32,000 bases of DNA from Candidatus Saccharimonadota bacterium (lineage in GTDB: Bacteria; Patescibacteriota; Saccharimonadia; Saccharimonadales; Saccharimonadaceae): positions 90,001 through 122,000 of the forward strand of contig DIRZ01000002.1 in the NCBI GenBank assembly GCA_002421785.1, in the 5' to 3' direction. Position numbers and translations under genes: made by a program. Below are positions 3,985 through 17,689 of the stretch, piece by piece (the stretch's first letter is position 1; the number at the start of each line of letters is the position of its first letter). The notes under the pieces were generated by a model. That model was not told the DNA's origin and ran no database searches. It worked only from the letters and a program-made list of their open reading frames with translations.

Positions 3985-4038
3985 TACCGCTCGTGTTTTG
4001 TGTCTTTTTTGTGTTTTTTACAACCTAACTTGGCATGT

Positions 4039-4877: not shown

Positions 4878-4883
4878 ACCACT

Positions 4884-4912: not shown

Positions 4913-4923
4913 GCCACCTAAGC

Positions 4924-4952: not shown

Positions 4953-5012
4953 GCGGTGATTTATGGGGTTAGTTGCATGGGCACATATACATACTCCTTT
5001 TACTTTGTTAGG

Positions 5013-5357: not shown

Positions 5358-5363
5358 ATGAAT

Positions 5364-5391
5364 AGTTTATCATACGTAGTGTTGGTGTCAA
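5364..5391 (-). promoter_or_regulatory. Promoter TTGACA, 16 nt, TAAACT, 6 nt upstream of the arsR ATG
   Basis: TTGACA lies at 5386-5391 and TAAACT at 5364-5369, in leaderless geometry. Confidence 0.45.
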
Positions 5392-6027: not shown

Positions 6028-6047
6028 GTTGTCATTATGTGGCACAG

Positions 6048-8957
6048 TTAAACTCTCCAATCATCTGGAGTTGATTTTGCATAGTCATGCATACCGATCT
6101 CGGCAAAGTGTTTTTTAGCGCACTCTATTTTTGCTAGTTCCGATTCTCGCTCGCCACCATTTTTAGTTTCACGCACCATGTAAATTTTTTCGCTACCTTC
6201 GACTTCCTTGACGATCGCCCAGTCGGGATTGTATGGACCAACAGGCGTAGGCACGACAAACTTTGCCGGCAACTTCAAAAAAAGCTTTATGTCATCACGA
6301 CTATCTAAATACTGGGCAAACTCGAGTTCGGTCGCAGAATCAAGCGCCAGTTTATCAGATATAGATTTTTGACTATTCTTCACCTCATATAGTCGATCAA
6401 TAAACCGTTCGACTTCATCTTCGCTATCGCGCTGGAATTCACGTAGCTCATAGACTTCATCTGCGATTTTCTCATACTGTATTCCATCGACTACTACTTT
6501 TGCCAAGACAGACTTAATCGCACTTTTTACCATCTGGATATAGTCATATGGATTGCTCAGGAACTCATGTAAGCGATTGCTACCTTGCAATATATCTACA
6601 ATAGTTTTACGAGTCAGGCTGGTCTCGGCCTGCAACTCCCGAATCACGTCCGGCAACTCAAATGTACCGGCCAGGTCGTTGCTGCTTTCGCCCACCACAC
6701 CAGCGTGGTGCATCCCGCCACGAACAAGCTTCATCCTGCTCTTGATAACCTCTATACGAAGCGGTTTGATCTCGGGTGCATGTTTGATAGATTCAACTGC
6801 CGCCATCACTACGCGACCATTATCAAACGACACTCGGTATGTCGTCTTACGAGAGATTTTCTTCCAGAGAGCTTCTAACTCTGGACTATAGAGTATCTCT
6901 TTGTTGAGCTTAATAGTCTGCTTCTGACGCGCATCTTTAACGAACTTATCAATTTTACAACTCTCAACGACATCCACAACCTCACTATGGTATTTCTGTA
7001 AATCACCGGGTAGATCCAGGTTGAAGCCAATATTTTGCGGCGTAAAGTTTGCCAATACCTTGCCGTCAGAGTCGATCATTCCTCGACGGTGCAGGTGGTC
7101 CCAAATTTCACGGGAAGCCTCATGCCCGAGGGTCTTATTCACATCGTCGTGCAGTCGGATTCGCGCAAATTCACCGTGTCGCACATATCCAATCTGAATC
7201 CCAGCCTTTTTATATTCTTTTTGCAGGTTGGTGGCAAAGTCACGGTATGACTCATTCGCTACCACCATCAGTTGATTTATCTGTTCGTCAAATACTCGCG
7301 TGCCGTCTTGACGCACTGGTAGGCGCAACCCGCGACCAATTGTTTGGCGTCGATCGTTCTCGCTGCTACTTTCGCGCATCATACATATCTGGAAAACGTT
7401 TGGATTATCCCAACCCTCTTTTAGCGCAGAGTGGCTGAAAATGAATCGGACAGGATTTGATTGATCGAGCAGCTTTTCTTTACCGCGCATGATCAAGTCA
7501 TAAGCCGACTCGTCGTTAGCATTGCCATTACCCTCTTTGCTATCAACCAAACTTGTCTTACCGCCTTTTCGCATTTCAGCAAAGTAGGCTGCTCGTACTT
7601 CGCTCGATTCTTCGGGAAGCATTTCTATATAGTACGGGCTTTTAGCGCGCTCTTCACGGTACAGCTCATCGAACCATTTTACAAAGCGACCGTCTATCTG
7701 ATTCCCGTCGTCATCATACGTTAAATAGCTCGCTACTTTATCAACGAAGAAAAGGCTAAGGACTTTTATGCCAGCATCCCTCAATAAATACTCACGCTTT
7801 ATGTGTTCCTTCACGGTGGTACGTATCATTTCACGTAGAATTTGATCTTCATTGCCGCCCCAGTTCTCGCCCAGCATTAATACACCATGCGTACCAATTT
7901 CAACATTAGCAGGGATGGTCGAGATGTCGTTTATCGTGTAGCCTTCATAAATGCTATTTCCAGTACGGATATCTAGCTTGTCGTGCTGCTTCACCCAGAG
8001 CGGCTTGCGGCCAACGTTACCGTTTTTGTCACGAACAAGCAGCTCTAGGTATGCTTCTAGCCTCGGCGTATTGCGCGTGTCGAGCAGCTTCACATATGGC
8101 TTAGCATCGCTGCCTTTCTGCTGAGCATTCGCTACCACTATGCCTTTGACAAGCTTCTCGCGATGGGCATCTACTGGGTCAAGCCTGTACATCATATTGT
8201 ACTCACGGCGGTGAGTGGCGCTATATCGCAACGTCCCCAGGGGACTCAATTTATCAATTGCCCCGCCAGCCAAATCACCCTCCATATTCTGTGGCTCATC
8301 CATGATAATGATAGGGTTTGTCGCCGCCATAAAATCTACCGGTGCGATACCGTTCAATTTATCTCGCTCTTGGTGAAATATACGATTTGACTTGTCACCT
8401 TTAATGCTCTGGATGGTCATAATCATGAATTGCATGTTGGTGCTGGTCGCAAAGCTCTGCACTACTTCGGGGCTTTTGCCATCGTATACGTTCATATCAA
8501 ATGGCGTCGCGTACAGCTCCATAAAGTGATCGCGCATACTCTCGATACTACTTTTGACACCTTCTTTAATGGCAACGCTTGGTACGATAATGATAAACTT
8601 CGTGAAGTTGTAGCGCCTTGCCAATTCAAATGCAGTGCGCAGGTACACGTAAGTTTTACCAGTACCAGTCTCCATTTCTATGCTGAAATTCATGCCGTCT
8701 AGCCGTGACAATGGCTCAATTCCATTTTCATTTTGGATAGCTTGAACATTTTCGAGGATTGATTCTTCATCTAGCAACAAGTTATTACCGACCGCACCAA
8801 TCTCACTGAACAAACCTGCTTGCGCGCCACTAACGGCGCGAGTTTTGAGTGCGGTCGAAAAAGCCTCCGCATCATTCGGTTGCCCTTCAAACACGTCAGC
8901 GATAGCATTTATGGCTGTGATCTGAAAATGTTGTTGTGAATCGTATTTAATTTTCAT
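6048..8957 (-). CDS. res: Type III restriction enzyme Res subunit (helicase plus endonuclease)
   Basis: The start MKIKYDSQQHFQ at 8957 is a typical Res N-terminus. It carries Walker A ETGTGKTY, motif II IMDEPQNM, helicase motif VI QTIGRGLRL and a C-terminal PD...E.K nuclease motif (PDWAIV...VRETK). It overlaps the DUF4145 stop. Confidence 0.85.
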   Translation of the reverse strand: MKIKYDSQQHFQITAINAIADVFEGQPNDAEAFSTALKTRAVSGAQAGLFSEIGAVGNNLLLDEESILENVQAIQNENGIEPLSRLDGMNFSIEMETGTGKTYVYLRTAFELARRYNFTKFIIIVPSVAIKEGVKSSIESMRDHFMELYATPFDMNVYDGKSPEVVQSFATSTNMQFMIMTIQSIKGDKSNRIFHQERDKLNGIAPVDFMAATNPIIIMDEPQNMEGDLAGGAIDKLSPLGTLRYSATHRREYNMMYRLDPVDAHREKLVKGIVVANAQQKGSDAKPYVKLLDTRNTPRLEAYLELLVRDKNGNVGRKPLWVKQHDKLDIRTGNSIYEGYTINDISTIPANVEIGTHGVLMLGENWGGNEDQILREMIRTTVKEHIKREYLLRDAGIKVLSLFFVDKVASYLTYDDDGNQIDGRFVKWFDELYREERAKSPYYIEMLPEESSEVRAAYFAEMRKGGKTSLVDSKEGNGNANDESAYDLIMRGKEKLLDQSNPVRFIFSHSALKEGWDNPNVFQICMMRESSSENDRRQTIGRGLRLPVRQDGTRVFDEQINQLMVVANESYRDFATNLQKEYKKAGIQIGYVRHGEFARIRLHDDVNKTLGHEASREIWDHLHRRGMIDSDGKVLANFTPQNIGFNLDLPGDLQKYHSEVVDVVESCKIDKFVKDARQKQTIKLNKEILYSPELEALWKKISRKTTYRVSFDNGRVVMAAVESIKHAPEIKPLRIEVIKSRMKLVRGGMHHAGVVGESSNDLAGTFELPDVIRELQAETSLTRKTIVDILQGSNRLHEFLSNPYDYIQMVKSAIKSVLAKVVVDGIQYEKIADEVYELREFQRDSEDEVERFIDRLYEVKNSQKSISDKLALDSATELEFAQYLDSRDDIKLFLKLPAKFVVPTPVGPYNPDWAIVKEVEGSEKIYMVRETKNGGERESELAKIECAKKHFAEIGMHDYAKSTPDDWRV

Positions 8958-9558
8958 CAGCAACATCTCCACTTGTATTTGTTCGCCTAGCTCTGCGAAC
9001 GGCGGCGCGCGCTGGAGCAACGTACAATACGTCACACATACTCTCTAGTAGTTCAAGTATATCGCGGGCTTCTTCATTAGACACCTCTGTCGCATTCGGG
9101 TGCGCAGCATCATTACCGACATAACGAACTTCGTGCGCCCAACTCTTAATTTCATCAGTAACAATATTATTCTGAAACAGCCAATCAATTTGCTTATGTA
9201 GCTTCATGCTTTCTGGAGCACCCTTATCAAGGCATATCACCTGTAGTGTTCTACGGGCTAGAGCCGCAGCACCACGATATGAGCCCGCCACCTCACAGAG
9301 AAGAGCCTCTTCGAAGTCCTTCTTAATCGGTTCAGGGATTAGATCATTCACCTTGCCGGGTAGTGTCTTCGGCCAGATCTTTATAATGTTGCCACTAGTG
9401 CGGTGCCTCATTACCAAAAAGTGGAAGTCGCAGCTATTGCACTCAGATACACAAAAACCTACATGAGTACCGTTAACGTCTTTATTATAGCTTGCTCTGT
9501 CCGTTAGGGATGAGTAACCCTTGCAACTTGGACAGTAGAATGAGTTTATATCGCTCAT
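8947..9558 (-). CDS. DUF4145 domain protein with N-terminal Zn-ribbon
   Basis: 203 aa with CPSCKG...CNSC and the DUF4145-like core ALARRTLQVICLDKG...WAHEVRYVGNDAAHP. It is inserted between mod and res. Confidence 0.65.
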   Translation of the reverse strand: MSDINSFYCPSCKGYSSLTDRASYNKDVNGTHVGFCVSECNSCDFHFLVMRHRTSGNIIKIWPKTLPGKVNDLIPEPIKKDFEEALLCEVAGSYRGAAALARRTLQVICLDKGAPESMKLHKQIDWLFQNNIVTDEIKSWAHEVRYVGNDAAHPNATEVSNEEARDILELLESMCDVLYVAPARAAVRRARRTNTSGDVADEN

Positions 9559-9561: not shown

Positions 9562-11481
9562 TTACACCGTCCACAACTCTACATCATAACTCTTACAAGT
9601 CTGCACGAGATTTGTCTTCAATTCATTGTCGCCCTGGAACGCGTCGTCGAGGATAACGAATTTGCTTGGAGTGAGTTCGGTCACGATAGCGCGGAGCTGC
9701 TCAAGAGTTGGCTTGGTGTGCTCATTTAAGTAAAAGACTGGCTGCACGTCGGCAGTCTCATCGTCAGCACCGTGCAAGACTTGATGAACTGTCAAGCCAG
9801 ATACTTCGCGTTCGGCTGTTCGGCTGGTAAGCGGCAATCCCATTTTCAGCATTATCTCTACCAGCAGATCTTCTTCGCTCGCATTATCGTCGGCGCTTTC
9901 ACGCATGGCATCCAGTCGGAGCTGAAGTTCGCCAAGGTCGCTTGTGGCGCTGCCTTGCCATTTGCGGAAGTTGGTATCGCTAAGCTTGTAGGTGCGGTAA
10001 CCAACGTCGAGCGGACTGGCGCGCTCGGCAAGGTTGTCGGCAAAACCTTCTTTGATCTTTTCGCCAGCTTTGTCTATCCGCGCTCGAGCGATGTCACTAA
10101 TCTTACGGTAGCCAACCTTATAGGCTTCGCTCTTCTCATCGGTCGGTTCGGGCAGCTGCACCTGGATGTGTCTACGGCTACCGCCATCTTCGGCATTGAG
10201 CTGCATAACGGCGTGAGCAGTAGTTCCTGATCCGGAGAAGAAATCAAGGACAGTTAGATTGTTACTCGGCATGACTTGCAATAAGAGTTTGATTAATTTG
10301 ATTGGTTTGGGATTGCTAAATGGTGTCTCAGGGCTCGCAAAAAGATCTACCAATCGTTTATTTTCCAAAGTTGCAGAACCATAATCTAGTAAGATTGACG
10401 AGAGATAGATTTCACCCATTTCATTACCGTATATCTTTATGGAAGGGGTTTGATTGCCGTCATTGCCCCAAAAAATTCGACCGTCGTTATTTAATGATTG
10501 AAATTCATCAAAAGGCTTCAAAAACTGACGAGTCCATTCTTTCCCTGTTGGGGATTTTACCGTGTAGTAGTTCTTGGAGTTTCGATTTGACAGCTCTTCA
10601 GATCTCGCGATCGAGCCTAACTTATATTCGCCACGAGGATCATTGTCTTTGTTTACAAGCTTTTGCTTATATTCACGCGTAACGAGTATTTTGCTAAAAA
10701 CTGCCCTATCAATGTTCCGATAGCAACAGAAAATGTACTCATGGTCACGACGCATTCGTTTTATAAGCTTCATTTTTTCAGACGATGAGCCAGTACCAAT
10801 TTTATTCCAGATCATCAACTCTACGTTCTGTTCACCAAATATCTCCTCACAGATTTTCCGTAAATTACCCTGCTCCGCATCGTCAATTGAAATAAATATT
10901 ACACCATCATCTGTCATTAAATTCCGCGCCAACTTCAGGCGTGGGTACATCATATTCAGCCAGTTACTGTGGTAGCGGCCGGTTGTTTCGGTGTTGGTGC
11001 TGATCTTTTTGTTACCTTCGTCGACTTGCTTGCTAAACTCTAGGTAGTTTTGCAGGCCTTCTTTGAAGTTGTCGGGGTAGACGAAATCTTTGCCGGTGTT
11101 GTAAGGAGGGTCGATGTAGATCATCTTGATGCTGTTGTGGTATTGCTTTTGCAACACCTTCAGCACCTCAAGATTGTCACCCTCGATGAAGATATTTTGA
11201 GTAGTATCCCAGTCTTTGCTTAGTTCCTTGGCAGGCTTCAGCGTAGCGGTCGTCGGATCCTGCGCCGCGCGCATAGCGTGCTTTTTGCCCGGCCAAAACA
11301 ACCCAAACCGCTCGTTTGTGTCACCAGCGTCTTCCGCCAGCAGTTCCTTTAGCTTCACAACATCTACCTTGCCATCAGCAATAGCCTCCGGCACTAAGTC
11401 TTCGAGCTGCTTTGCTAGCTCCGTGCGAAACTCTGGCGATTTTCCGCTCAGCTCGTAAATATCTGTATTCTGGTCGTTCAT
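9562..11481 (-). CDS. mod: Type III R-M Mod subunit (beta-class N6-adenine DNA methyltransferase)
   Basis: Motif IV IDPPYNTG precedes motif I FFSGSGTTAHAV, with a long variable region (TRD) between them. I chose the ATG at 11481, which has AAGGCGG upstream. Confidence 0.85.
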   Translation of the reverse strand: MNDQNTDIYELSGKSPEFRTELAKQLEDLVPEAIADGKVDVVKLKELLAEDAGDTNERFGLFWPGKKHAMRAAQDPTTATLKPAKELSKDWDTTQNIFIEGDNLEVLKVLQKQYHNSIKMIYIDPPYNTGKDFVYPDNFKEGLQNYLEFSKQVDEGNKKISTNTETTGRYHSNWLNMMYPRLKLARNLMTDDGVIFISIDDAEQGNLRKICEEIFGEQNVELMIWNKIGTGSSSEKMKLIKRMRRDHEYIFCCYRNIDRAVFSKILVTREYKQKLVNKDNDPRGEYKLGSIARSEELSNRNSKNYYTVKSPTGKEWTRQFLKPFDEFQSLNNDGRIFWGNDGNQTPSIKIYGNEMGEIYLSSILLDYGSATLENKRLVDLFASPETPFSNPKPIKLIKLLLQVMPSNNLTVLDFFSGSGTTAHAVMQLNAEDGGSRRHIQVQLPEPTDEKSEAYKVGYRKISDIARARIDKAGEKIKEGFADNLAERASPLDVGYRTYKLSDTNFRKWQGSATSDLGELQLRLDAMRESADDNASEEDLLVEIMLKMGLPLTSRTAEREVSGLTVHQVLHGADDETADVQPVFYLNEHTKPTLEQLRAIVTELTPSKFVILDDAFQGDNELKTNLVQTCKSYDVELWTV

Positions 11482-11656
11482 TTTACCGCCTTGCACTCCC
11501 CTCTGTTGTGTATCTGTTGATAGTATAGCATGATAGACAACGTAATAAGATTCCTGTGAAATGTGTCAATACTTTTATGAAAAAAGTACGAATAAAAATT
11601 ACAGATGAATGTTGTGGATAAAATACACTTATGCTATTGACAAAACACCTCATCTA

Positions 11657-11685
11657 TTGACTGAGTAATAATTATGTGCTATAAT
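11657..11685 (+). promoter_or_regulatory. Near-consensus orphan promoter TTGACT, 17 nt, TGcTATAAT
   Basis: TTGACT lies at 11657-11662 and TATAAT at 11680-11685, preceded by TGC. No plus-strand ORF lies downstream. Confidence 0.6.
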
Positions 11686-11691
11686 GATTAT

Positions 11692-11746
11692 GTTAACGTA
11701 CCATGTTGTTCGATTAACACTGAGAGCGTCCTCATGGGCGCTTTTT
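11692..11746 (+). ncRNA. Candidate small RNA of about 55 nt, bounded by a promoter and an intrinsic terminator
   Basis: The predicted TSS is near 11692. There is a 5' hairpin GUUAA...UUAAC. The terminator is AGCGUCC-UCAU-GGGCGCU plus UUUU (11725-11746) and is specific to the plus strand. Confidence 0.45.
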
Positions 11747-11757
11747 GCGTATATTGC

Positions 11758-12279
11758 CTAGAGTTGCCGAAATGAATTGCCGTATTTTTTCTGTAAATCA
11801 CCTCGCATCCAGCGCTTATCGATATGGTAAGCGGTGATAATTACTCGTTTTTGACCCATCGCTATCGTTTTGCTGTCTTTTGGGCAGATGATTACAACAA
11901 AGTCTAAACCCTGAAGCCAAAGAAAAAGCTTATCTCCCTCTGGGGTGGAGCTCCAAAATCCCGTTACCTCCGGTTCTGTGTAGTTATCGAGGATGGCCTT
12001 CACCCAAGGCAACTTGCGTGCGCGATCATAGTCAATTGCACGGTCCTTTTTGCCTCTCGTTATCATGTGCGTAAAACCGTGCGTGTATTTACCTCCCCAT
12101 CTGGACTTATCAGCGTGTGTATTTACATACACTGCCGAGCCGTCAACGATTGATGCTGCAGCATCCATAAAATCCCTTCTATAAACCTCATGCAGCTCAT
12201 CGAGGTTTCTCTGGAGAGAGTTGCCAGCAAGTCTTAGCTGGGGTGGCAGCCATTCCGGCTCCACTATTTCGGCTCCCAA
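11758..12279 (-). CDS. Hypothetical protein (168-173 aa), family not recognised; possible BECR-like RNase layout
   Basis: The ORF-track start is a TTG at 12279. An alternative GTG at 12264 shares its G with the DUF3800 TAG stop (TAGTG). It has a His-rich KYTHGFTHMITRG block, then LPWVKAIL, then VIITAYHI. Confidence 0.6.
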   Translation of the reverse strand: MGAEIVEPEWLPPQLRLAGNSLQRNLDELHEVYRRDFMDAAASIVDGSAVYVNTHADKSRWGGKYTHGFTHMITRGKKDRAIDYDRARKLPWVKAILDNYTEPEVTGFWSSTPEGDKLFLWLQGLDFVVIICPKDSKTIAMGQKRVIITAYHIDKRWMRGDLQKKYGNSFRQL

Positions 12280-12977
12280 AAGAAGAGATTAAACTTCTCA
12301 ACTCCATATGGCGTACCCTGCGTCAGTTTCTGCTCGATCGATTCCTCGACCAACCGTATCAGCTCCATTTTTGCGCCGGATCTCTGCTGATCTTTTGGCT
12401 TATTTGCATACATTACGGCACCCGTAATAAGGTCGGCAATTTGAAGCCCAATAACCTCGTGCGATCGAAGCGGCTGTGCGGTAAGTGATTTGTGATTGAG
12501 ACTGCCTGTGTTGTTGAGGTATTCTGCCAGTTCGCGCGAGTATTTGCCCGACCAAGCATCTTTGTAGTCCAAAAATAATCGGATGTCACCAAGTCTTTTT
12601 TCGGCAATATTCCGTACTAATATATATTGCATGGTGTAATAAAAAGTCTCGCGAGTCTTACCATGTGCTTCGTAGTCAATTTTAGACTTGTCTATAATAA
12701 CCGAGCGATAATTTACCTGCTCTAGGTTGAGAAAAAGTTGTATCAGTTCTTTGTAATAATCTAGTTTTGCAGCGCTAACTTTTGTCCATTTTATCTCTCG
12801 GTGTGTCGGAATATCGTACTTCTTTTTAATTAGTCTTACAGCGTCATTTAGAACGGGAAGCTGTTCGACATCGAACCATATTGCACCAAGCAACATATGT
12901 CCACCATCATTGTCGTTGTTATGGCGCGATTCATCGATATACACATTGATTGGTTGGAATATTTTTGATACATCCAT
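12264..12977 (-). CDS. DUF3800 domain protein
   Basis: 237 aa. The N-terminal NVYIDESRH acidic motif and overall layout are typical of DUF3800. Confidence 0.65.
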   Translation of the reverse strand: MDVSKIFQPINVYIDESRHNNDNDGGHMLLGAIWFDVEQLPVLNDAVRLIKKKYDIPTHREIKWTKVSAAKLDYYKELIQLFLNLEQVNYRSVIIDKSKIDYEAHGKTRETFYYTMQYILVRNIAEKRLGDIRLFLDYKDAWSGKYSRELAEYLNNTGSLNHKSLTAQPLRSHEVIGLQIADLITGAVMYANKPKDQQRSGAKMELIRLVEESIEQKLTQGTPYGVEKFNLFFWEPK

Positions 12978-12983
12978 AGCATG

Positions 12984-12992
12984 ATTATAACA
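12984..12992 (-). promoter_or_regulatory. Extended -10 element TGTTATAAT, 6 nt upstream of the DUF3800 ATG
   Basis: The minus strand reads TGTTATAAT-catgct-ATG within the 22-bp spacer after the SNF2 stop. Confidence 0.4.
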
Positions 12993-12999
12993 GTAGTGG

Positions 13000-15843
13000 C
13001 TAAATTATAGAGAAGCTGATTTCGAACAGGCCCTCTGTCTGCGTACTACCCTCTGCGGCTTGCTGTGCTAGCAAAATCTTCTCGCTAATTTCATCGTCCA
13101 TGCTGTCCTCGAGGTCGTACTTCTCCCGATTCAGCGCACGGACCTTTTTGCGCAGTACTTGTACTTCACTAGCGATCCTGAGGCGCTCGGATGCGTCGGT
13201 GGCTTGGCGCTCCTGCTTCTGCAAGTCACGGACCTTTGCCTCCAGCTTGTCGGCTTTCATCTCGTATTCAACTATCTTGTCTTTGTATTGGCGCTCCAGC
13301 AGGTCTTTTTTGTCTAAATACGTCTCGGTATTACGCCCCTTAACTTCAGTATGACGGTCGGCTATCTGCTGCTGCAAGAATGTACTTATACTATCAGTTA
13401 ATTCAACCGGCTGCTCATGCACGTTTGTCACGGTCAACTCCAGGATATTGCGGCAGGTTTCGGTATCGATCCTTTGGCCATCGTCAGTCTCGCCCGCAGC
13501 GACAATGTAGCTTTCGCTCATATCGGTGGCGCCAGCTTTCATCGGGAATGTCACCTGCTGAACTACCATCGTTCCGCTTTGGCCTGCTAGGCGCTTTACA
13601 TCGCTCGCAACCCTTTCTGAACCAGCAAGACTAAACGTCAGTTTGGCGGGTGGCGTGTTGGCGCTTTTAGCATTTCTGCGCACGTACTCAGCAAGCTCAC
13701 CCGCATACTTGTACTGTCGCGCATGCGGCACCCGGTCTGTTTTGTAAAAATACAACCCCGTCTCTATGCCTTCTTCTGGCGCCGGGTCAAGCTTGAATAC
13801 GTGTTCGTCTTCAAAGTCTGCCATAGTACGCAGCTCATAACGCGTCAGGCCCATGAACATTCGCTCAAAACTATTAAAGGCATCTTGGGCCTGCTCGCTG
13901 TAGCGCTGGAACCGATCCTGCACATGCGGGTCAAGCCCATTGAACACACGCGCACGAGCAGCATTCTGCTCAGTGGCTATCTCGTCCTTAAACTGCTCTT
14001 GCAGTTGTGCAAATCGCTGATTAATCTCATCATCCGTGCGACAAGTGTTCAAAATATCACTAATAGTGCGCTCGAAGTCGATACCATTCTCGATGGCTCC
14101 GAGCACATCATTGCTTGCGCCAAACGTATCTTTGAACAGGTTGAATTTATCTGCAAGTAAATCAAGAATGCGCCTTTCGGCAGTATTACCTTCGTTGCTA
14201 AAGTTAACGACAACCACGTCATACTTCTGGCCCATTCGGTGCACACGGCCGATTCGTTGCTCCACGCGCTGTGGATTCCATGGTAGGTCGTAGTTAACAA
14301 GCATTGAACAGAATTGCAGGTTTATACCTTCACTTGCGGCTTCCGTTGCGATCATAATTTGCATGTCGTCTTCTTTAAACTTATCGATCAGTGCCTTGCG
14401 TCGATCCGAAGATTCAATGCCAGTAATTAGGTCCGTGTCTTTATTCGCAATCTTCCACTCGTTATATATTTTGGTTTGGTCTGGCGACCTGTTGTTGCCA
14501 TTGAACAAGACGTACTTACCCGCAAAACCCTGCTCTTCAAGAGTATGCGCTATGTATTCCTGCGTCCGGGTTGATTCGGTAAAAATGATTGCTTTGCGTG
14601 CGGCTTTGGCCTGAAGAGTATTAAAACCAAGCGTAATTGCCTCAACCAAGTGGTCTGCTTTTACATTGCGAGTGATCGATTCTGCCAACTCAGCATAACC
14701 GATTAGCTCATCAATCTCCGCCCTGAACTCAGCGCGATCCTTGGCTGATTCGAGTGAGATATCATCGATTTCACCTGAATTTTCATAATATTCAATTTCT
14801 TCATCCGTTAGGTCGTCAAACTCTACGAGGCCACCGCGATTATCACGTATTTTTCCATTCGCATATTCGTCTTCCATGCGAGCAATGATTCTTCGCAGCG
14901 TACTAGCGACCGCGAACGAGGATGAACCCAGGCGCTTTCGTATAATCAGTGCCGCGAGATGGCGCTGCGAAGAAGCAAAAGCATACAGTTTATCACGATG
15001 CAAATAGTCATCGACTAGGTCGTAGAGCTTCTTTTCATCGCCAGATGGTTCAAATGTTACTGTTCGCGCAATACGATTCGTGTATTTGATGTACTTTTTT
15101 GCTTCTGAACGAAGCGTGCGCTTCGCTATCTTACTCATTCGAGCACGGAGGTCCTCTAGCGCATATGGGTGGCTTGATTTAATATAGCGTTGCTTAAATA
15201 CATCGAGACTATGAAAATAGTTCGGATCCACAACCGACACGAGGCCGTACAATTCTTCGAGGCGGTTCTGAAGAGGAGTGGCGGTGAGTAGTAGCGATTT
15301 GCTTGTGCCTTTGGCTATGTCTGAGATAGCGCTAGCCACACCTTTTTTGTTGCTATAGAAATTCCTAAGCTTGTGAGCTTCATCAAGAATCAGCAAGTCC
15401 CAACCAGTGGTAAGTTTCTCTACATTTCGATTAGCGAACTCATACGAGCAAATATAGATCCCGTCTTTAGTGACAGATTTTCCGCCGATCGATTTAGCAT
15501 CGATGATACTCGCATGGAGGTTAAACTTCTCTTCTAGTTCTTGCTTCCACTGCTGACGAAGGCTCGAAGGAGAAACAATCAGTATCTTGCGCTTTCGCTC
15601 AGCCCAGTACTGCATAATAACCACACCGGCTTCAATGGTCTTGCCGAGCCCTACTTCGTCTGCCATGATGACGCCACGCGTATTCGGCGAATCAAGCGCA
15701 AAGAGCGCCGCATCAATTTGATGCGGCGTAGGTGTAATCTGAGCATCAAACATTAAACCAGATAGCTTTGCTACGTCGTCATTTGCGTAGACACGCTCTA
15801 GTTCATGGGCAATATGTTTTGCCTGGTAGTCAGACGATATCAT
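13000..15843 (-). CDS. SNF2-family helicase with a long uncharacterised C-terminal region and terminal coiled coil
   Basis: 947 aa. Helicase motifs are I ADEVGLGKT, II LILDEAHKLRN, III LLLTATPLQN and VI QRIGRVHRMGQ. The following ~380 aa carry no motif I can name and end in an E/K/R-rich coiled coil. Confidence 0.85.
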   Translation of the reverse strand: MISSDYQAKHIAHELERVYANDDVAKLSGLMFDAQITPTPHQIDAALFALDSPNTRGVIMADEVGLGKTIEAGVVIMQYWAERKRKILIVSPSSLRQQWKQELEEKFNLHASIIDAKSIGGKSVTKDGIYICSYEFANRNVEKLTTGWDLLILDEAHKLRNFYSNKKGVASAISDIAKGTSKSLLLTATPLQNRLEELYGLVSVVDPNYFHSLDVFKQRYIKSSHPYALEDLRARMSKIAKRTLRSEAKKYIKYTNRIARTVTFEPSGDEKKLYDLVDDYLHRDKLYAFASSQRHLAALIIRKRLGSSSFAVASTLRRIIARMEDEYANGKIRDNRGGLVEFDDLTDEEIEYYENSGEIDDISLESAKDRAEFRAEIDELIGYAELAESITRNVKADHLVEAITLGFNTLQAKAARKAIIFTESTRTQEYIAHTLEEQGFAGKYVLFNGNNRSPDQTKIYNEWKIANKDTDLITGIESSDRRKALIDKFKEDDMQIMIATEAASEGINLQFCSMLVNYDLPWNPQRVEQRIGRVHRMGQKYDVVVVNFSNEGNTAERRILDLLADKFNLFKDTFGASNDVLGAIENGIDFERTISDILNTCRTDDEINQRFAQLQEQFKDEIATEQNAARARVFNGLDPHVQDRFQRYSEQAQDAFNSFERMFMGLTRYELRTMADFEDEHVFKLDPAPEEGIETGLYFYKTDRVPHARQYKYAGELAEYVRRNAKSANTPPAKLTFSLAGSERVASDVKRLAGQSGTMVVQQVTFPMKAGATDMSESYIVAAGETDDGQRIDTETCRNILELTVTNVHEQPVELTDSISTFLQQQIADRHTEVKGRNTETYLDKKDLLERQYKDKIVEYEMKADKLEAKVRDLQKQERQATDASERLRIASEVQVLRKKVRALNREKYDLEDSMDDEISEKILLAQQAAEGSTQTEGLFEISFSII

Positions 15844-15884
15844 TGTGATAAATTATACACCAATCACCTCTGTTACGCAATTTG

Positions 15885-16526
15885 TCAAATAATAGAGTGG
15901 TCCTGCCTTGTTACTACGATGTGATACTTGACCGGTACGCCTAGTACCCCTCCAGAATCTTCTAGTCGGTATGTTACTGCTTTGTCGTCATCGCTTATTC
16001 CTAGGCTGCCACTCGGGTGGTTATGCGCCACGATGATGCTGGCGGCGCGGTCGGTGATGGCGTCGGCGAAGACTTCGCGGGGATGGACGAGGCTGGCGGT
16101 GAGCGTGCCGATGGTAATGACGCGCTTGGCAATCAGGCGGTTGGCACCGTCCAGTGTGAGGCATACAAAGTGTTCCTGCTTTTTGTCTCGGATATCGCCA
16201 AGCTGCGCAACGGCTTTTTCGGGAGTGTCGATAATCGGTCGCTCAGAAACTTCAAATTGCCGGCGCCATAGCTCAAACGCCGCCATGAACTGCGTGGTTT
16301 TGGCGAGTGCCATACCTTTTACGCCCATTAGGTCTTCGAACGTTAGTTCGCTCCCCTTTTCGGCAATCAACTTTTTCAAATCCCGTGCAATCTTGGTCAC
16401 GTCCGCCGCGCCACTGCCGCTGCCAATGATCGCCATCAACAGCTCAAGGTCACTCAGCTTCCCCGCCCCATACTTTTGCATTTTTTCACGTGGGCGGTTC
16501 TGGAGTTGTCTGTCGGTCATTTTCAT
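15885..16526 (-). CDS. radC: RadC-like JAB/JAMM domain protein
   Basis: 213 aa with the C-terminal JAMM motif VAHNHPSGS and a RadC-type N-terminal helix-hairpin-helix region. Confidence 0.8.
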   Translation of the reverse strand: MKMTDRQLQNRPREKMQKYGAGKLSDLELLMAIIGSGSGAADVTKIARDLKKLIAEKGSELTFEDLMGVKGMALAKTTQFMAAFELWRRQFEVSERPIIDTPEKAVAQLGDIRDKKQEHFVCLTLDGANRLIAKRVITIGTLTASLVHPREVFADAITDRAASIIVAHNHPSGSLGISDDDKAVTYRLEDSGGVLGVPVKYHIVVTRQDHSII

Positions 16527-16567
16527 AGTAATAGTAGTATAATATACCCACTAACCAAAGGATGTAT

Positions 16568-16624
16568 ATGAGCAAAGGCCAAGACAAGCGCAAAGAGAAA
16601 AAGAAGGAACCGAAAGCCAAGTAA
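16568..16624 (+). CDS. Candidate 18-aa Lys-rich small ORF (MSKGQDKRKEKKKEPKAK) ahead of crtE
   Basis: TATAAT lies at 16538-16543 and AAAGGA at 16557-16562, 5 nt before the ATG at 16568. The TAA is at 16622-16624, 6 nt before the crtE ATG. It is too short to judge coding potential. Confidence 0.25.
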   Translation: MSKGQDKRKEKKKEPKAK

Positions 16625-16630
16625 CCCAGC

Positions 16631-17689
16631 ATGCCGCCTGTAACGACGACACAGCTATCGCTTGAGCATACCCGCACGCTCGTTGACGCACACATGCGTG
16701 CACTGTTTACCGAGCGGCGGCAGCGTGCCGCACTGATACACGAATCGTACGCGGCGTTCTGGGACCACATTGCCGAAGTGGCGATGGCGGGCGGCAAACG
16801 CATTCGCCCTTACCTGACCATGGTAGGCAACGGCAGCTTCGACGAGCGCGCACTCCCTGTGGCGCTCGCACAAGAATTCATTCACATCGCCATGCTCGTG
16901 CATGACGACATCATTGACCAAGACACCATGCGCCATGGGGCAAAAAACTTGACCGGTCGTTACATCGACACCTACAGCCCACACGCCGACCCAGCCCGGG
17001 CGCTCCACTACGCCAACAGTGCCGCATTACTCGGCGGCGACAGCCTGATTTCGGAAGCCTACCGGCTGATTGAAACAAGCGATTACCCTCACGATGTACG
17101 ACAGAAGCTCAGCGAACAACTGGCGACATCTATCTTCGAAGTAGTGGGCGGTGAACTGCTCGACGTCGAAGCAGGATTCATTAGCGGTGTGCCCTACGAC
17201 CCAATGACAGTGTACCGCTACAAAACATCCAGCTACAGCTTCATTGGGCCACTGCTTTCGGGCGCGTACTGCGCTGGCACTGACGACGCGACCCTAGCCA
17301 CCCTGGAACGATTCGCCACCAACATGGGCGTAGCCTTCCAAATACAGGACGACCTGCTGGGTGTGTTTGGTGACGAACAACAAACGGGCAAATCGACCAC
17401 CAGCGACCTGCGCGAGGGCAAGCAGACCCTGCTGGTGCGCTACCACACCGAACTAATGACCGCAGAGCAGCACGAACGGTTCACCTGGTTTGGTAGGCAA
17501 GATGCCAGCGAAGAACAGCTACAAGCCATAAAAGCCGATATGACGAGTTCGGGTGCTCGCCAAAAAACAATGGACCTGGCGGAATACTACTTTGCGGCCG
17601 CTCATACCGACCTGGCACAGCTGCCCGACGATGCACGCACCGCCGAACTTACCAACCTGATTACCCAGCTACAGGGGCGGAGTGTGTAA
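16631..17689 (+). CDS. crtE: Polyprenyl (geranylgeranyl) diphosphate synthase
   Basis: 352 aa with the first Asp-rich motif LVHDDIID and the second FQIQDDLLG. It is the first gene of the crt operon, and its stop overlaps the crtB start. Confidence 0.8.
   Translation: MPPVTTTQLSLEHTRTLVDAHMRALFTERRQRAALIHESYAAFWDHIAEVAMAGGKRIRPYLTMVGNGSFDERALPVALAQEFIHIAMLVHDDIIDQDTMRHGAKNLTGRYIDTYSPHADPARALHYANSAALLGGDSLISEAYRLIETSDYPHDVRQKLSEQLATSIFEVVGGELLDVEAGFISGVPYDPMTVYRYKTSSYSFIGPLLSGAYCAGTDDATLATLERFATNMGVAFQIQDDLLGVFGDEQQTGKSTTSDLREGKQTLLVRYHTELMTAEQHERFTWFGRQDASEEQLQAIKADMTSSGARQKTMDLAEYYFAAAHTDLAQLPDDARTAELTNLITQLQGRSV

What the first reader, a model, noticed from the sequence alone, without database searches (positions are those of the whole stretch)
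11758..15843. Candidate undescribed defence system: SNF2 helicase, DUF3800 and an unknown 173-aa protein
Three consecutive minus-strand genes sit between a RadC/JAB gene and the Type III R-M. The first is a 947-aa SNF2 helicase with motifs I-VI in the first ~560 aa. Its remaining ~380 aa have no motif I can name and end in a charged coiled coil. After 22 bp comes a DUF3800 protein with an N-terminal YIDES-type acidic motif, possibly a nuclease-like fold. Its TAG stop shares a G with a GTG start (TAGTG, 12262-12266) of a 168-173 aa protein of no recognisable family. That protein's layout (KYTHGFTHMITRG, then LPWVKAIL, then beta-like VVIICP and VIITAYHI) reminds me of phage BECR-fold RNase toxins, which is inference only. 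The window lacks the partner genes of known SNF2-containing systems: DISARM DrmA/B/C, Zorya ZorA/B/C and BREX PglZ/BrxC. A helicase sensor or motor with a putative nuclease and a small toxin-like effector in a defence island fits the logic of a new anti-phage or abortive-infection system. One caveat is that SNF2 and DUF3800 each have a -10 box just upstream (15852-15857 and 12984-12992). The minimal unit may therefore be the coupled DUF3800/173-aa pair.
Basis: partly seen in the sequence, partly recalled or inferred. Interest (0 to 1): 0.8.

Follow-up and report, generated by a model that had tools for sequence, protein, structure and literature searches.

The report
RlfAB-like nuclease pair with hidden sRNA
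The helicase belongs to the neighbouring restriction system, while the DUF3800 gene and its small partner form a separate mobile cassette, related to phage P1 rlfA/rlfB and already listed as an untested defence candidate, that also carries a conserved, previously unannotated small RNA gene.

Summary
The three ORFs exist exactly as described, but they are not one system.

**SNF2 helicase.** The 947-aa protein is DrmD-like along its whole length. It belongs to a conserved SNF2–Mod–Res operon. In 50 of 52 distant homologous loci it is followed by a Type III Mod, usually within 150 nt, and none of those loci has the pair.

**The pair.** The DUF3800 protein and the small protein (true length 168 aa) match PADLOC candidates PDC-M04A and PDC-M04B, which are predicted but untested. 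They are homologues of phage P1 RlfA/RlfB. The two genes are adjacent in 50 of 51 loci carrying the small gene. In more than half of the species-level loci there is no SNF2 within 10 kb.

**The slot.** In Saccharibacteria relatives the position between SNF2 and Mod is a cargo slot. It alternatively holds Gabija, a retron-type RT, Fic/SoFic and other cassettes.

**Folds.** DUF3800 models as an RNase HII-like fold with invariant acidic residues. The small protein gives only weak colicin-D (BECR) matches.

**New here.** A convergent ~55-nt small RNA gene lies just after the small gene, with its own promoter, a covarying hairpin and a terminator. It has no Rfam match. The same layout occurs in Saccharibacteria, Helicobacter, Aliarcobacter, an Enterobacter prophage and phage P1.

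The likeliest function is a nuclease-based anti-phage or abortive-infection cassette held in check by the RNA. This is inferred, not shown.

The parts
15885..16526 (-). RadC/JAB gene. It is the upstream neighbour of SNF2 and part of the Saccharibacteria version of the R-M backbone, not of the pair.
   Evidence: Pfam RadC 8.9e-33 plus UPF0758_N. NCBIfam TIGR00608 scores 169.5 against a cut-off of 133.85. RadC is upstream of SNF2 in 20 of 21 Saccharibacteria-type loci and in 0 of 52 distant SNF2-Mod-Res loci.
13000..15843 (-). DrmD-like SNF2 helicase (947 aa). It is the first gene of a conserved SNF2-Mod-Res operon and not a component of the DUF3800 cassette.
   Evidence: PADLOC DrmD PDLC02619 3e-173. 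NCBIfam DrmD_b scores 583 bits (cut-off 950) and DrmD scores 283 bits over residues 30-920 (cut-off 610). Mod lies directly downstream in 50 of 52 distant homologous loci. The same order occurs on Salmonella, Cupriavidus and Aeromonas plasmids.
12984..12989 (-). TATAAT box 7 nt upstream of the DUF3800 start codon, the putative promoter of the cassette.
   Evidence: Read from the sequence. An equivalent TGTATAAT lies upstream of DUF3800 in L013. The consensus scan did not call this site because it has no -35. Its function is untested.
12264..12977 (-). DUF3800 / PDC-M04A / RlfA-like protein (237 aa) with an RNase HII-like fold and conserved acidic residues.
   Evidence: Pfam DUF3800 2.8e-13. 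PADLOC PDC-M04A 1.6e-62. AF2 pLDDT 91.6. Foldseek finds RNase H2/HII at E 2e-7. D15, E16, D137, D140 and D182 are invariant and Q179 nearly so. P1 RlfA is 30% identical, with an hmm E-value of 3e-98.
11758..12264 (-). PDC-M04B / RlfB-like small protein (168 aa from GTG), translationally coupled to DUF3800 through the TAGTG overlap.
   Evidence: PADLOC PDC-M04B 2.6e-28, with 12 models hit. Homologues are 164-170 aa. The family has 797 clusters at 50% identity. AF2 pLDDT 90.8. P1 RlfB gives an hmm E-value of 1.7e-16. Colicin D fold matches are weak.
11692..11746 (+). Predicted ~55-nt small RNA, convergent to the pair. It has hairpin 1 (11692-11718, conserved loop UACCAUGUUGU), then a GC-rich hairpin (11725-11742) and a U-run that would act as an intrinsic terminator.
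   Evidence: It is conserved 0-13 nt after the small gene in 47 loci and is absent from pair-less loci. The covariance model scores 89.7 bits. Covariation is supported. The predicted fold is shown. No Rfam family matches. Transcription has not been shown.
11657..11685 (+). Promoter-like site for the small RNA: TTGACT, a 17-nt spacer containing TGn, then TATAAT.
   Evidence: This is the best promoter-like match in 11300-16700, at 11 of 12 positions with a TG. A 17-nt-spaced promoter-like pair of hexamers is found in the same place in 18 of 33 distinct Saccharibacteria-type sequences by a strict pattern, and by eye in the rest. It is also present in P1, Enterobacter, Helicobacter, Aliarcobacter and L123.
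11560..11656 (.). Conserved non-coding stretch upstream of the sRNA promoter. It holds a second GTCAATAG/TTGACA repeat (11634-11641), a DnaA-box-like TTATCCACA (11613-11621) and a TTGACA (11564-11569) facing Mod. Its role is unknown.
   Evidence: nhmmer 'el2' hits occur in 32 loci, all 63-75 nt after the small gene. The 200 nt downstream are 64-85% identical between loci, against 61-71% for the two coding genes.
9562..11496 (-). Type III Mod methyltransferase, the backbone partner of SNF2.
   Evidence: PADLOC MTase_III 1e-178. Pfam N6_N4_Mtase 4.1e-33.
8947..9558 (-). DUF4145 / PD-T7-4-like gene embedded between Mod and Res, marking a second cargo slot.
   Evidence: Pfam DUF4145 1.3e-17. PADLOC PD-T7-4 1.9e-17. 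A KilA-N gene occupies the same position in L004-L009.
6048..9035 (-). Type III Res endonuclease, a backbone gene.
   Evidence: PADLOC REase_III 2.7e-272. Pfam ResIII plus RE_endonuc.

Best explanation
The region is a composite defence island built on a three-gene restriction-modification operon: a DrmD-like SNF2 helicase, a Type III Mod and a Type III Res, with RadC upstream in Saccharibacteria. Its gene junctions act as cargo slots.

**The cassette.** The DUF3800 gene and the 168-aa gene are one such cargo. They form a self-contained, mobile cassette of the PADLOC PDC-M04 / phage P1 RlfA-RlfB family. As read here the cassette has three parts:
1. An RNase HII-fold protein, presumably a metal-dependent nuclease (DUF3800/RlfA).
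2. A translationally coupled small alpha/beta protein (RlfB-like), probably a stoichiometric partner and possibly a second, colicin-D-like RNase.
3. A convergent ~55-70-nt small RNA gene with its own promoter, one conserved hairpin and an intrinsic terminator that abuts the stop codon of the small gene.

**Proposed mechanism (inferred).** The RNA holds the nuclease pair or its mRNA in check, in the manner of a type I or type III antitoxin or an RNA cofactor. Infection would disturb that balance. The nuclease would then cut RNA:DNA hybrids or RNA, aborting phage replication.

**Shown here:** gene anatomy, family memberships, independence from SNF2, predicted folds, and the conservation and covariation of the RNA element.

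**Inferred:** nuclease activity, complex formation, transcription and role of the RNA, and the anti-phage phenotype.
For: **SNF2 belongs with the R-M genes.**
- In 50 of 52 distant homologous loci Mod lies downstream, within 150 nt in 46. Res follows in 39 of 40 loci long enough to show it. None has the pair.
- The same order occurs on proteobacterial plasmids, sometimes with other embedded genes.

**The pair is autonomous.**
- PDC-M04A and PDC-M04B hits.
- DUF3800 is adjacent in 47 of 48 loci that carry the small gene.
- In 3 of 3 loci fetched through the DUF3800 protein, the next ORF is the small-protein family.
- The pair occurs without SNF2 in many unrelated contexts, including phage P1 rlfA-rlfB with the same 1-nt overlap.

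**Slot behaviour.**
- The same SNF2-Mod gap holds GajA/GajB, a retron-type RT, Fic/SoFic, DUF6119 and PDC-M36A cassettes.
- One locus (L046) keeps only an 89-aa remnant of the small gene.
- L013 equals L050 plus the cassette, flanked by an 84-nt direct repeat.

**Folds.**
- DUF3800 matches RNase H2/HII at E 2e-7, with invariant D15, E16, D137, D140 and D182.
- This agrees with published modelling of DUF3800 (PMC7736814, PMC10910872).

**Small RNA.**
- The non-coding DNA after the small gene is better conserved than the genes.
- The element is found only next to pairs, in 47 loci.
- Promoter, hairpin and terminator have the same layout in Saccharibacteria, L123, P1, Enterobacter, Helicobacter and Aliarcobacter.
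- Covariation: 96.2% of cells are paired against 79.0 +/- 2.6 in shuffles. There are 24 double-change cells against 7.4 +/- 2.4, exceeded by 0 of 500 shuffles. Slid controls give 20-48% paired.
- G.U pairs occur only on the strand opposite the genes.
- Weinberg et al. reported 11 different RNA motifs next to DUF3800 genes (PMC5737381).
Against: - No experiment links PDC-M04 or rlfAB to phage defence. The PADLOC authors list it among 145 untested candidates. P1 rlfA and rlfB are simply non-essential in a CRISPRi screen.
- In P1 a C1-controlled operator (Orlf) is annotated between repL and the predicted rlfA promoter. Repression in the lysogen, if real, fits a lytic-phase function better than lysogen-encoded immunity.
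- Several pair-only loci sit among housekeeping genes rather than in defence islands.
- The fold match of the small protein is not significant.
- Transcription of the RNA is only predicted. The covariation rests on 13-17 sequences in two or three clades, and the tested structure was derived from those same sequences.
- No conserved complementarity between the RNA loop and the cassette mRNA was found, so a simple antisense mechanism is not supported.
Confidence: 0.6

Rival explanations
1. First reader's model. SNF2 helicase (sensor or motor), DUF3800 (nuclease) and the small protein (toxin) form one new three-gene defence system.
For: The three genes are consecutive and co-oriented, with a 22-nt gap and a 1-nt overlap. 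The same order recurs in 9 species-level Saccharibacteria loci.
Against: - All co-occurrences fall in one clade, where SNF2 is about 78% identical between loci, so they are not independent.
- In the same clade 11-12 loci keep SNF2-Mod-Res but carry other cargo in place of the pair.
- None of 52 distant SNF2 loci has the pair.
- 14 of 24 species-level pair loci have no SNF2 within 10 kb.
- The pair has its own -10 box.
- P1, Enterobacter, Helicobacter and Aliarcobacter carry the pair without SNF2.
Confidence: 0.04
2. The cassette is a replication or maintenance function of mobile elements, as the P1 annotation 'possibly associated with lytic replication' suggests. The RNase H-like protein would process RNA primers or R-loops. 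The downstream repeats and the DnaA-box-like site would be origin-like DNA.
For: - P1 rlfA and rlfB lie directly after repL/oriL.
- The fold is RNase HII-like.
- The conserved non-coding stretch has two GTCAATAG repeats 20 nt apart and a TTATCCACA sequence that matches the DnaA-box consensus.
- The pair is carried by phages and prophages.
Against: - rlfA and rlfB are non-essential for P1 lytic growth. They are deleted or replaced in P1-like plasmids.
- One GTCAATAG repeat is better explained as the -35 box of the sRNA promoter.
- Chromosomal copies sit alone inside operons, with no other mobile-element genes.
- Known defence cassettes occupy the same slot.
Confidence: 0.12
3. The cassette is a toxin-antitoxin-type addiction module with an RNA antitoxin. 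It stabilises the element or island that carries it and has no direct anti-phage role.
For: - The layout, two coupled genes plus a convergent small RNA ending at the toxin gene's 3' end, resembles type I TA loci. This comparison rests on established knowledge of Bacillus txpA/RatA-like loci.
- The cassette is present on the P1 plasmid-prophage and is scattered in varied genomic contexts.
Against: - Toxicity has not been tested.
- The proteins are much larger than type I toxins.
- There is no conserved complementarity between the RNA loop and the mRNA.
- Many TA systems also act as abortive-infection systems, so this rival overlaps the best explanation rather than excluding it.
Confidence: 0.12
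4. The cassette is primarily a phage or mobile-element counter-defence or inter-element competition tool. For example, it might destroy host immune nucleic acids such as retron msDNA or other RNA:DNA hybrids. Chromosomal copies would then be captured phage genes.
For: - Homologues occur in P1/P7, in other phage records and in a BFVD viral protein.
- In P1 a C1-controlled operator (Orlf) is annotated just upstream of the predicted rlfA promoter. If it controls rlfA, expression would be lytic-phase.
- DUF3800 has an RNase H-like fold.
- The RNA gene alone is present on a viral contig.
Against: Most copies found are chromosomal. Within the Saccharibacteria R-M slot they alternate with bona fide defence systems. 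Guilt-by-embedding is the criterion by which PADLOC nominated the pair.
Confidence: 0.08

Closest known systems
PADLOC phage-defence candidate PDC-M04 (Payne et al., bioRxiv 10.1101/2024.01.29.577857)
   Same: Both proteins match the PDC-M04A and PDC-M04B HMMs over their full length (1.6e-62 and 2.6e-28). They are adjacent, co-oriented and embedded in an R-M-type system, which is the criterion used to nominate PDCs.
   Different: PDC-M04 is defined as two protein genes and is untested. The convergent small RNA gene and the link to P1 rlfA/rlfB did not appear in anything I could search. The embedding host here is an SNF2-Type III R-M operon, whereas the preprint screened BREX, DISARM, Type I R-M and Hma.
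Phage P1 rlfA-rlfB (P7 'rapA'), annotated 'possibly associated with lytic replication'
   Same: RlfA is 30% identical to the DUF3800 protein over 97% of its length. RlfB matches the small-protein profile at E 1.7e-16. P1 has the same gene order, the same 1-nt overlap, and the same convergent promoter-hairpin-terminator unit after rlfB.
   Different: The P1 copy sits in a phage-plasmid next to repL, and a C1-controlled operator is annotated just upstream of its predicted promoter. The window copy sits in a chromosomal R-M operon of a probable Saccharibacterium. Neither has a demonstrated function, and rlfAB is non-essential.
Other DUF3800 partners: retron type VII (RT + DUF3800), TPR-DUF3800 with Cas12a2/a3, Csx32 in Cas13 CASK loci
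   Same: They share the Pfam domain and the RNase H-like fold, and they recur alongside immune systems and non-coding nucleic acids (PMC7736814, PMC10910872, PMC13594972, bioRxiv 10.64898/2026.08.25.746378).
   Different: The window has no RT, Cas or kinase partner. The window protein keeps both the DE and the QxxD motif, whereas the retron VII proteins lack the Q. The partner here is the RlfB-like protein. The retron-type RT next to the pair in some sister loci best matches type VI, not type VII.
DUF3800-I to DUF3800-XI RNA motifs (Weinberg et al. 2017, PMC5737381)
   Same: These are structured RNAs encoded next to DUF3800 genes, on either strand, several with their own Rho-independent terminator. 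That description fits the RNA found here.
   Different: No Rfam model, including the DUF3800 motifs held there, matches the window or related loci, even at E up to 5. The RNA would therefore be a further class. I did not compare it with motifs that are absent from Rfam.
RNase HII / RNase H2 catalytic subunit
   Same: These are the best structural matches, at probability 1.0, E 2e-7 to 1e-5 and TM about 0.5. Conserved acidic residues lie on the first strand, at the end of a later strand and in a helix.
   Different: Sequence identity is only 9-14%. Neither substrate nor activity has been tested. DUF3800 has its own QxxD motif and extra helices.
DISARM class 1 DrmD, as a comparison for the SNF2 helicase
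   Same: DrmD models are the best HMM matches in PADLOC and NCBIfam, and one aligns over nearly the whole protein. As in class 1 DISARM, the helicase gene precedes a methyltransferase gene.
   Different: Scores fall below both curated cut-offs (583 against 950, and 283 against 610). There is no DrmA, DrmB or DrmC. The partners are a Type III Mod and Res. I found no paper naming this SNF2-Mod-Res triad.
Colicin D tRNase / BECR-fold RNases, as a comparison for the small protein
   Same: The top four PDB Foldseek hits are colicin D tRNase chains. The family has an invariant His, Arg and Asp (H66, R75, D78, R81).
   Different: The matches are not significant (E 0.17-0.39, TM 0.29 and 0.43-0.46) and cover about 90-100 columns. 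There is no sequence match to any PDB chain.

Membership tests
PADLOC PDC-M04 | Protein A matches a PDC-M04A HMM | tested here: met
   PDLC04353 at 1.6e-62, covering residues 9-236 of 237.
PADLOC PDC-M04 | Protein B matches a PDC-M04B HMM and is adjacent to A on the same strand | tested here: met
   PDLC04360 at 2.6e-28, plus 11 further PDC-M04B models. The two genes overlap by 1 nt.
PADLOC PDC-M04 | Anti-phage activity | not testable with these tools
   The source preprint lists the PDCs as untested.
Pfam DUF3800 (PF12686) | Score above the gathering threshold, with the N-terminal DE and C-terminal QxxD motifs | tested here: met
   51.3 bits against a cut-off of 21. D15, E16 and D182 are invariant and Q179 is at least 90% conserved.
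RNase H-like (RNase HII) fold | Fold similarity of a confident model to solved RNase HII/H2 structures | tested here: met
   pLDDT 91.6. 23 PDB hits have E <= 1e-3, all RNase H2, HII or HIII.
RNase H-like (RNase HII) fold | Catalytic carboxylates superpose on the DEDD site, and the protein has nuclease activity | not tested
   Only sequence conservation of the acidic residues was seen. No residue-level superposition or assay was possible.
Phage P1 RlfA/RlfB family | Both proteins are homologous to RlfA and RlfB, in the same order and with overlapping genes | tested here: met
   RlfA: BLASTP 2.9e-34 and hmm 3e-98. RlfB: BLASTP 8e-9 and hmm 1.7e-16. In P1, rlfA is at 51740-52444 and rlfB at 52444-52908.
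DISARM class 1 | DrmD equivalog score | tested here: not met
   NF038318 scores 583 against 950, and NF038317 scores 283 against 610.
DISARM class 1 | DrmA, DrmB (DUF1998) and DrmC (PLD) present in the locus | tested here: not met
   None of the 17 window ORFs scanned has DrmA, DrmB or DrmC as its own family. The only DrmA hit is a weak secondary match of the SNF2 helicase core.
Type III restriction-modification | Mod (N6_N4 MTase) and Res (ResIII helicase + endonuclease domain) both present | tested here: met
   MTase_III 1e-178 and REase_III 2.7e-272. Pfam N6_N4_Mtase, ResIII and RE_endonuc.
Zorya / BREX / Hma (BR) systems | ZorA/ZorB; PglZ/BrxC; or DUF499 ATPase partners of an SNF2 helicase | tested here: not met
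   There are no such hits in the window. BR systems require a DUF499 ATPase (PMC12839542).
BECR-fold RNase toxins | Significant fold match to a BECR member | tested here: inconclusive
Retron type VII | A retron RT and msr/msd RNA next to DUF3800 | tested here: not met
   The window has no RT. The RT in sister loci best matches RT_VI.
Rfam DUF3800-associated RNA motifs | Covariance-model match | tested here: not met
   No match at the gathering threshold or at E <= 5 in the window. None near pairs in 9 other loci.
Bacterial small RNA gene (generic) | Own promoter, conserved structure with covariation, and an intrinsic terminator | tested here: met
   Promoter-like site matching 11 of 12 positions, repeated across phyla. 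Covariation. A GC hairpin plus U-run.
Bacterial small RNA gene (generic) | The transcript is detected | not testable with these tools
   No expression data are available here.

The most novel reading that the evidence does not exclude
The RlfA-like RNase HII-fold nuclease, the RlfB-like protein and the convergent small RNA form a previously unrecognised, phylum-spanning RNA-plus-protein immune module. The RNA would act as antitoxin or cofactor. Some phages would carry the RNA gene alone as an antidote, as the viral contig L133 does. This would also assign a function to the P1 genes rlfA and rlfB.
Probability: 0.25. Interest if true: 0.8.

Novelty: new variant of a known kind. Interest (0 to 1): 0.62.

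Why it matters
**Annotation.** The result corrects a tempting mis-annotation. A helicase lying next to two unknown genes in a defence island need not belong with them, and neighbourhoods from outside the clade settle the question.

**A link between two records.** An untested PADLOC candidate (PDC-M04) turns out to be the same family as phage P1 rlfA/rlfB, two genes of a classic model phage whose function is unknown. The conserved small RNA gene next to them is not annotated in the P1 reference record. The candidate can therefore be tested directly in E. coli with existing P1 genetics.

**DUF3800 biology.** The result gives a concrete example of the unexplained association between DUF3800 genes and structured RNAs.

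**R-M operons as cargo carriers.** The SNF2-Mod-Res operon is widespread and apparently unnamed. In Saccharibacteria it works as an exchange slot for defence cassettes, which is of interest because these reduced genomes have little room for immunity genes.

Tried and rejected
- **SNF2 C-terminus.** A word-index search with the C-terminal region returned only gene fragments from close relatives. The question was answered instead by the NCBIfam DrmD alignment and by tblastn on fetched loci.
- **Small protein against PDB sequences.** The profile search gave nothing.
- **Rfam.** Nothing was found in the window at the gathering threshold or at E <= 5. In 9 related loci at the gathering threshold, nothing was found near the pair.
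- **Strand of the RNA element.** I first read the conserved element as a 3'-UTR structure on the gene strand. I dropped this in favour of the opposite strand for three reasons: the conserved promoter, the position of the U-run, and the G.U pairs.
- **Antisense pairing.** I looked for conserved pairing between the RNA loop and the cassette mRNA. Only chance 7-mers at varying positions turned up.
- **DnaA box and iterons.** The idea that the downstream region is an origin was not pursued further. One repeat is explained by the sRNA promoter and the rest remains unexplained.
- **Viral-contig pattern scan.** It gave 6 loci. One (L133) carries a strong full-length copy of the RNA element. Three (L129, L132, L134) match only part of the model, and the one inspected (L132) looks like a chance match within apparently coding sequence. 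L130 gives a weak full-length match and L131 gives none.
- **Literature.** Searches found no paper naming an SNF2 + Type III Mod/Res system, none mentioning PDC-M04 in its main text, and no experimental test of a DUF3800 defence system.

Full report
**1. Checking the observation**

The ORF list shows three consecutive minus-strand ORFs: 13000-15843 (947 aa), 12264-12977 (237 aa) and 11758-12279. RadC is upstream at 15885-16526. A Type III Mod (9562-11496), a DUF4145 gene (8947-9558) and a Type III Res (6048-9035) are downstream.

Pfam places SNF2-rel_dom at residues 41-292 and Helicase_C at residues 451-538 of the long protein. It finds DUF3800 in the second protein and nothing in the third.

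The sequence shows the 22-nt gap and the TAGTG stop/start overlap at 12262-12266. It also shows TATAAT boxes at 12984-12989 and 15852-15857. Neither box has a usable -35, and the consensus scan did not call either one.

Homologues of the third protein are 164-170 aa, so the GTG start and a length of 168 aa are correct. The island from about 5 to 16 kb has lower G+C (0.44-0.49) than its flanks (0.51-0.57). Related loci are all from Candidatus Saccharibacteria assemblies, so the window probably is too.

**2. The pair is already catalogued**

PADLOC-DB matches the DUF3800 protein to PDC-M04A (1.6e-62) and the small protein to PDC-M04B (2.6e-28, with 12 models hit).

PDC systems come from the 'guilt-by-embedding' preprint of Payne et al. 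That work nominated 145 untested candidates from genes nested inside BREX, DISARM, Type I R-M and Hma systems. Its supplementary table 8 reads 'Assign as candidate PDC-M04' for a two-family cassette.

No paper in the library mentions PDC-M04 in its text. None reports an experimental test of a DUF3800 defence system.

**3. The SNF2 helicase belongs to the restriction system**

The helicase best matches DrmD of class 1 DISARM (PADLOC 3e-173). It falls below both NCBIfam cut-offs. One DrmD model aligns across residues 30-920, so the C-terminal region is DrmD-like rather than orphan.

A metagenome scan with an SNF2 alignment returned 80 loci, which split into two groups.
- **Distant relatives (48-61% identity).** Of 59 loci, 52 have at least 700 nt after the gene. 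Of these, 50 have a Type III Mod downstream, 46 of them within 150 nt. Res follows in 39 of the 40 loci with enough sequence. None has the pair and none has RadC.
- **Saccharibacteria-type loci (70-78% identity).** Of 21 loci, 20 have Mod downstream, but always 1.5-5.6 kb away. Nine carry the pair and 20 have RadC.

Annotated plasmids of Cupriavidus, Salmonella and Aeromonas show HTH-SNF2-Mod-Res. In Salmonella an IS256 and an Abi gene sit between SNF2 and Mod. In Aeromonas an AAA ATPase and a DUF4276 gene sit between Mod and Res.

I found no publication that names this triad. The BREX-related 'BR'/Hma systems need a DUF499 ATPase, which is absent here.

**4. The pair is autonomous and mobile**

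A species-level genome scan with the small-protein alignment gave 24 loci.
- DUF3800 is immediately upstream of the small gene in 23 of them. The exception is a fragment.
- The RadC-SNF2...Mod-Res backbone is present in 9. One further locus has SNF2-Mod-Res on the other strand. Fourteen have no SNF2 within 10 kb.

With profile searches, 47 of 48 loci holding the small gene also hold DUF3800 next to it.

Pair-only contexts include:
- polysaccharide-synthesis genes;
- housekeeping genes;
- a phage-like region;
- the end of an Enterobacter ludwigii prophage, next to the integrase and tRNA genes;
- a position beside an MmeI-type enzyme in Aliarcobacter.

The small-protein family has 797 clusters at 50% identity, and among the 150 best hits listed nearly all are stand-alone proteins of 155-175 aa.

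**5. The SNF2-Mod gap is a cargo slot**

In the Saccharibacteria loci the gap holds different cassettes:
- the pair alone, as in the window;
- the pair plus a retron-type RT (best PADLOC model RT_VI, 2.6e-60);
- the pair plus GajA/GajB (1.4e-144 and 2.9e-125);
- the pair plus a Fic/SoFic-like gene and two unknown genes;
- the Fic set without the pair;
- Fic plus DUF6119;
- a PDC-M36A-like gene;
- small unknown ORFs.

L046 keeps only an 89-aa remnant of the small gene next to Gabija.

L013 equals L050 or L037 plus a 1.6-kb insertion comprising the pair and its downstream DNA. The insertion is flanked by an 84-nt direct repeat that copies the 3' end of SNF2 and its hairpin. This points to recombination anchored on the SNF2 3' end.

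The Mod-Res junction is a second slot. It holds DUF4145/PD-T7-4-like in the window and KilA-N elsewhere.

**6. Link to phage P1**

A tblastn search of phage records found P1 rlfA (P7 'rapA'), at 30% identity over 97% of the DUF3800 protein.

In NC_005856, rlfA (51740-52444) and rlfB (52444-52908) overlap by one base. They follow repL, and a C1-controlled operator lies between repL and the predicted rlfA promoter. Both are annotated 'possibly associated with lytic replication'.

RlfB matches the small-protein profile at E 1.7e-16, and BLASTP against the window protein gives 8e-9. Both genes are non-essential in a CRISPRi screen. They are deleted or replaced in P1-like plasmids.

**7. Folds**

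The DUF3800 model (pLDDT 91.6) matches RNase H2/HII catalytic subunits, with 23 PDB hits at E <= 1e-3 and the best at 2e-7. This agrees with published modelling. D15, E16, D137, D140 and D182 are invariant in 44 homologues, and Q179 is nearly so.

The small-protein model (pLDDT 90.8) has no significant PDB match.
- The top four hits are colicin D tRNase chains, at E 0.17-0.39.
- In the viral library there is one true homologue, and the other matches are weak.
- Invariant residues include H66, R75, D78 and R81.

The BECR idea therefore stays a lead and is not a result.

**8. A conserved small RNA gene**

The non-coding DNA after the small gene is better conserved than the genes. Between the window and 12 other loci, identities are:

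| Region | Nucleotide identity |
|---|---|
| First 75 nt downstream | 68-97% |
| 200 nt downstream | 64-85% |
| DUF3800 gene | 63-70% |
| Small gene | 61-71% |

A profile of the first ~60 nt finds the element in 47 loci. It is always 0-13 nt after the stop codon of the small gene, and it is never found in the roughly 70 loci without the pair.

RNAalifold predicts two hairpins, and 4 of 14 pairs show compensatory changes.

Read on the opposite strand, the element has the anatomy of a gene.
- **Promoter.** The best promoter-like site of the region is TTGACT-17-TATAAT with a TG, at 11657-11685 on the + strand.
- **Hairpin.** It lies 6 nt upstream of a hairpin with a conserved loop.
- **Terminator.** A GC-rich hairpin and a U-run follow. 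The invariant A-run on the gene strand is this U-run.

The predicted RNA is about 55 nt, at 11692-11746 on the + strand.

The same layout follows the small gene in L123, phage P1, the Enterobacter prophage, two Helicobacter species and Aliarcobacter. It consists of a promoter-like site with a 17-nt spacer, a hairpin of the form UAC-C(A/G)NGN-GUA, and then a second hairpin. That second hairpin is followed by a U-run everywhere except in Helicobacter.

On a 13-sequence alignment of the hairpin across these lineages:
- 96.2% of cells pair, against 79.0 +/- 2.6 in shuffles and 20-48% when the partner column is slid;
- 24 cells change on both sides, against 7.4 +/- 2.4, exceeded by 0 of 500 shuffles;
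- four of eight pairs are compensatory;
- eight cells are G.U on this strand, which would be A.C on the gene strand.

Several caveats apply. The sequences are few and fall into two or three clades. The structure was derived from them. Transcription is not shown.

No Rfam family matches. Weinberg et al. described 11 unrelated RNA motifs next to DUF3800 genes, several with terminators and on either strand. This RNA looks like a further class of that kind.

One viral contig (L133) carries the RNA gene with its promoter but no pair.

I found no conserved complementarity between the loop and the cassette mRNA.

The roughly 100 nt upstream of the sRNA promoter is also conserved. It holds a second GTCAATAG repeat, a DnaA-box-like TTATCCACA and a terminal TTGACA facing Mod. 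Its role is unexplained.

**9. How it most likely works**

*Shown:* the anatomy above.

*Inferred:*
- The RNase HII-like protein is an active nuclease.
- The small protein is its partner, as suggested by translational coupling and strict co-occurrence.
- The small RNA controls or assists them.
- The cassette acts against phages or other mobile elements, as suggested by its alternation with Gabija, retron-type and SoFic cassettes in one slot and by the embedding criterion.

I favour a model in which the RNA restrains the nuclease pair and infection releases it. The P1 regulation, the housekeeping contexts of some copies and the absence of any experiment keep the rival readings alive. These are a replication or maintenance function, a pure addiction module, and a phage counter-defence tool.

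**10. Verdict**

The three-gene interpretation is not supported.

What is new is the conserved convergent small RNA gene, the link between P1 and PDC-M04, and the description of the SNF2-Mod-Res operon as a cargo-bearing backbone.

Noticed in passing
L004-L056 (related loci), between the SNF2 and Mod genes: The SNF2-Mod junction is a hypervariable cargo slot in Saccharibacteria. It alternately holds Gabija, a retron-type RT, Fic/SoFic with or without DUF6119, PDC-M36A-like and PDC-M14B-like genes, or the DUF3800 pair. L046 holds a decayed remnant of the small gene.
   Followed up: yes
L013:9150-9233 and L013:10761-10844; L026:9085-9137 and L026:10768-10820: The inserted cassette is flanked by direct repeats of 84 nt (96% identical) in L013 and 53 nt in L026. 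The repeats copy the 3' end of the SNF2 gene and its terminator hairpin. This suggests cassette exchange by recombination anchored on SNF2.
   Followed up: partly
L133:11885-11965 (IMG/VR viral contig IMGVR_UViG_3300033066_000441): A full copy of the small RNA gene, with promoter, scores 71.6 bits on a phage-like contig that has no DUF3800 or small-protein gene. It lies next to a 70-aa winged-helix ORF, with large ORFs typical of a phage structural or packaging module nearby (not family-tested). It could be a phage-borne antidote or a remnant.
   Followed up: partly
L125:4655-4760, equal to NC_005856 about 52906-53011, complementary strand: Phage P1 has an unannotated promoter-hairpin-terminator unit between rlfB and pmgF: TTGAAA-17-TAGATT, a hairpin CUCAUCUACCAUGUGUAGAAAGAG, then a 14-bp terminator with a U-run. 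It is homologous in layout to the window's small RNA.
   Followed up: partly
window 8947-9558 (-): A DUF4145 protein matching the PADLOC model PD-T7-4 (1.9e-17) is embedded between Type III Mod and Res. A KilA-N gene occupies the same position in L004-L009. This marks a second cargo slot.
   Followed up: partly
window 2495-6060 (-): The island continues beyond Res. It holds a T5orf172/PDC-S57-like gene (5392-6060), an unknown 231-aa ORF (4039-4734), an S24 peptidase/LexA-like gene (3337-3969) and a Bro-N/PDC-S13-like gene (2495-3340).
   Followed up: partly
window 16631-21467 (+): A carotenoid-type cluster lies directly beside the island in what appears to be a Saccharibacteria genome. It comprises polyprenyl synthetase, phytoene synthase, a CrtI-like desaturase, two small lycopene-cyclase-type subunits and a UbiA prenyltransferase. 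G+C rises from about 0.45 to 0.56 at the boundary.
   Followed up: partly
L126 (Salmonella IncFIB plasmid), L127 (Aeromonas pE31A), L128 (Cupriavidus plasmid): HTH-SNF2-Mod-Res operons occur on proteobacterial plasmids. PGAP labels the helicase only 'SNF2-related protein'. Some carry embedded genes: IS256 plus Abi in Salmonella, and an AAA ATPase plus DUF4276 in Aeromonas. I found no name for this triad in the literature.
   Followed up: partly
L003:11926-15483; window 15885-16526: RadC sits next to a helicase gene in two different settings: SNF2 in the window and a SLFN-g3-type helicase in L003. It is absent from the distant SNF2-Mod-Res operons, where a small HTH gene takes its place on the plasmids examined.
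   Followed up: no
L060:17886-20696: A TrlF-family AAA-like ATPase (479 bits against a cut-off of 350) directly follows Res in one distant SNF2-Mod-Res operon.
   Followed up: no
window 11560-11656: The conserved non-coding stretch upstream of the sRNA promoter contains a perfect DnaA-box consensus (TTATCCACA, 11613-11621). This is kept as TTWTCCAC in most of the distant Saccharibacteria loci. The stretch also holds a second GTCAATAG repeat. Its function is unexplained.
   Followed up: partly
L004-L009, L024, L025, L028, L040, L041, L048, L053, L056: In this sample the retron-type RT cassette (15 loci) is seen only next to the DUF3800 pair. The loci are closely related, so this may reflect shared ancestry. 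Because DUF3800 is a retron type VII effector, a functional link is worth checking.
   Followed up: no
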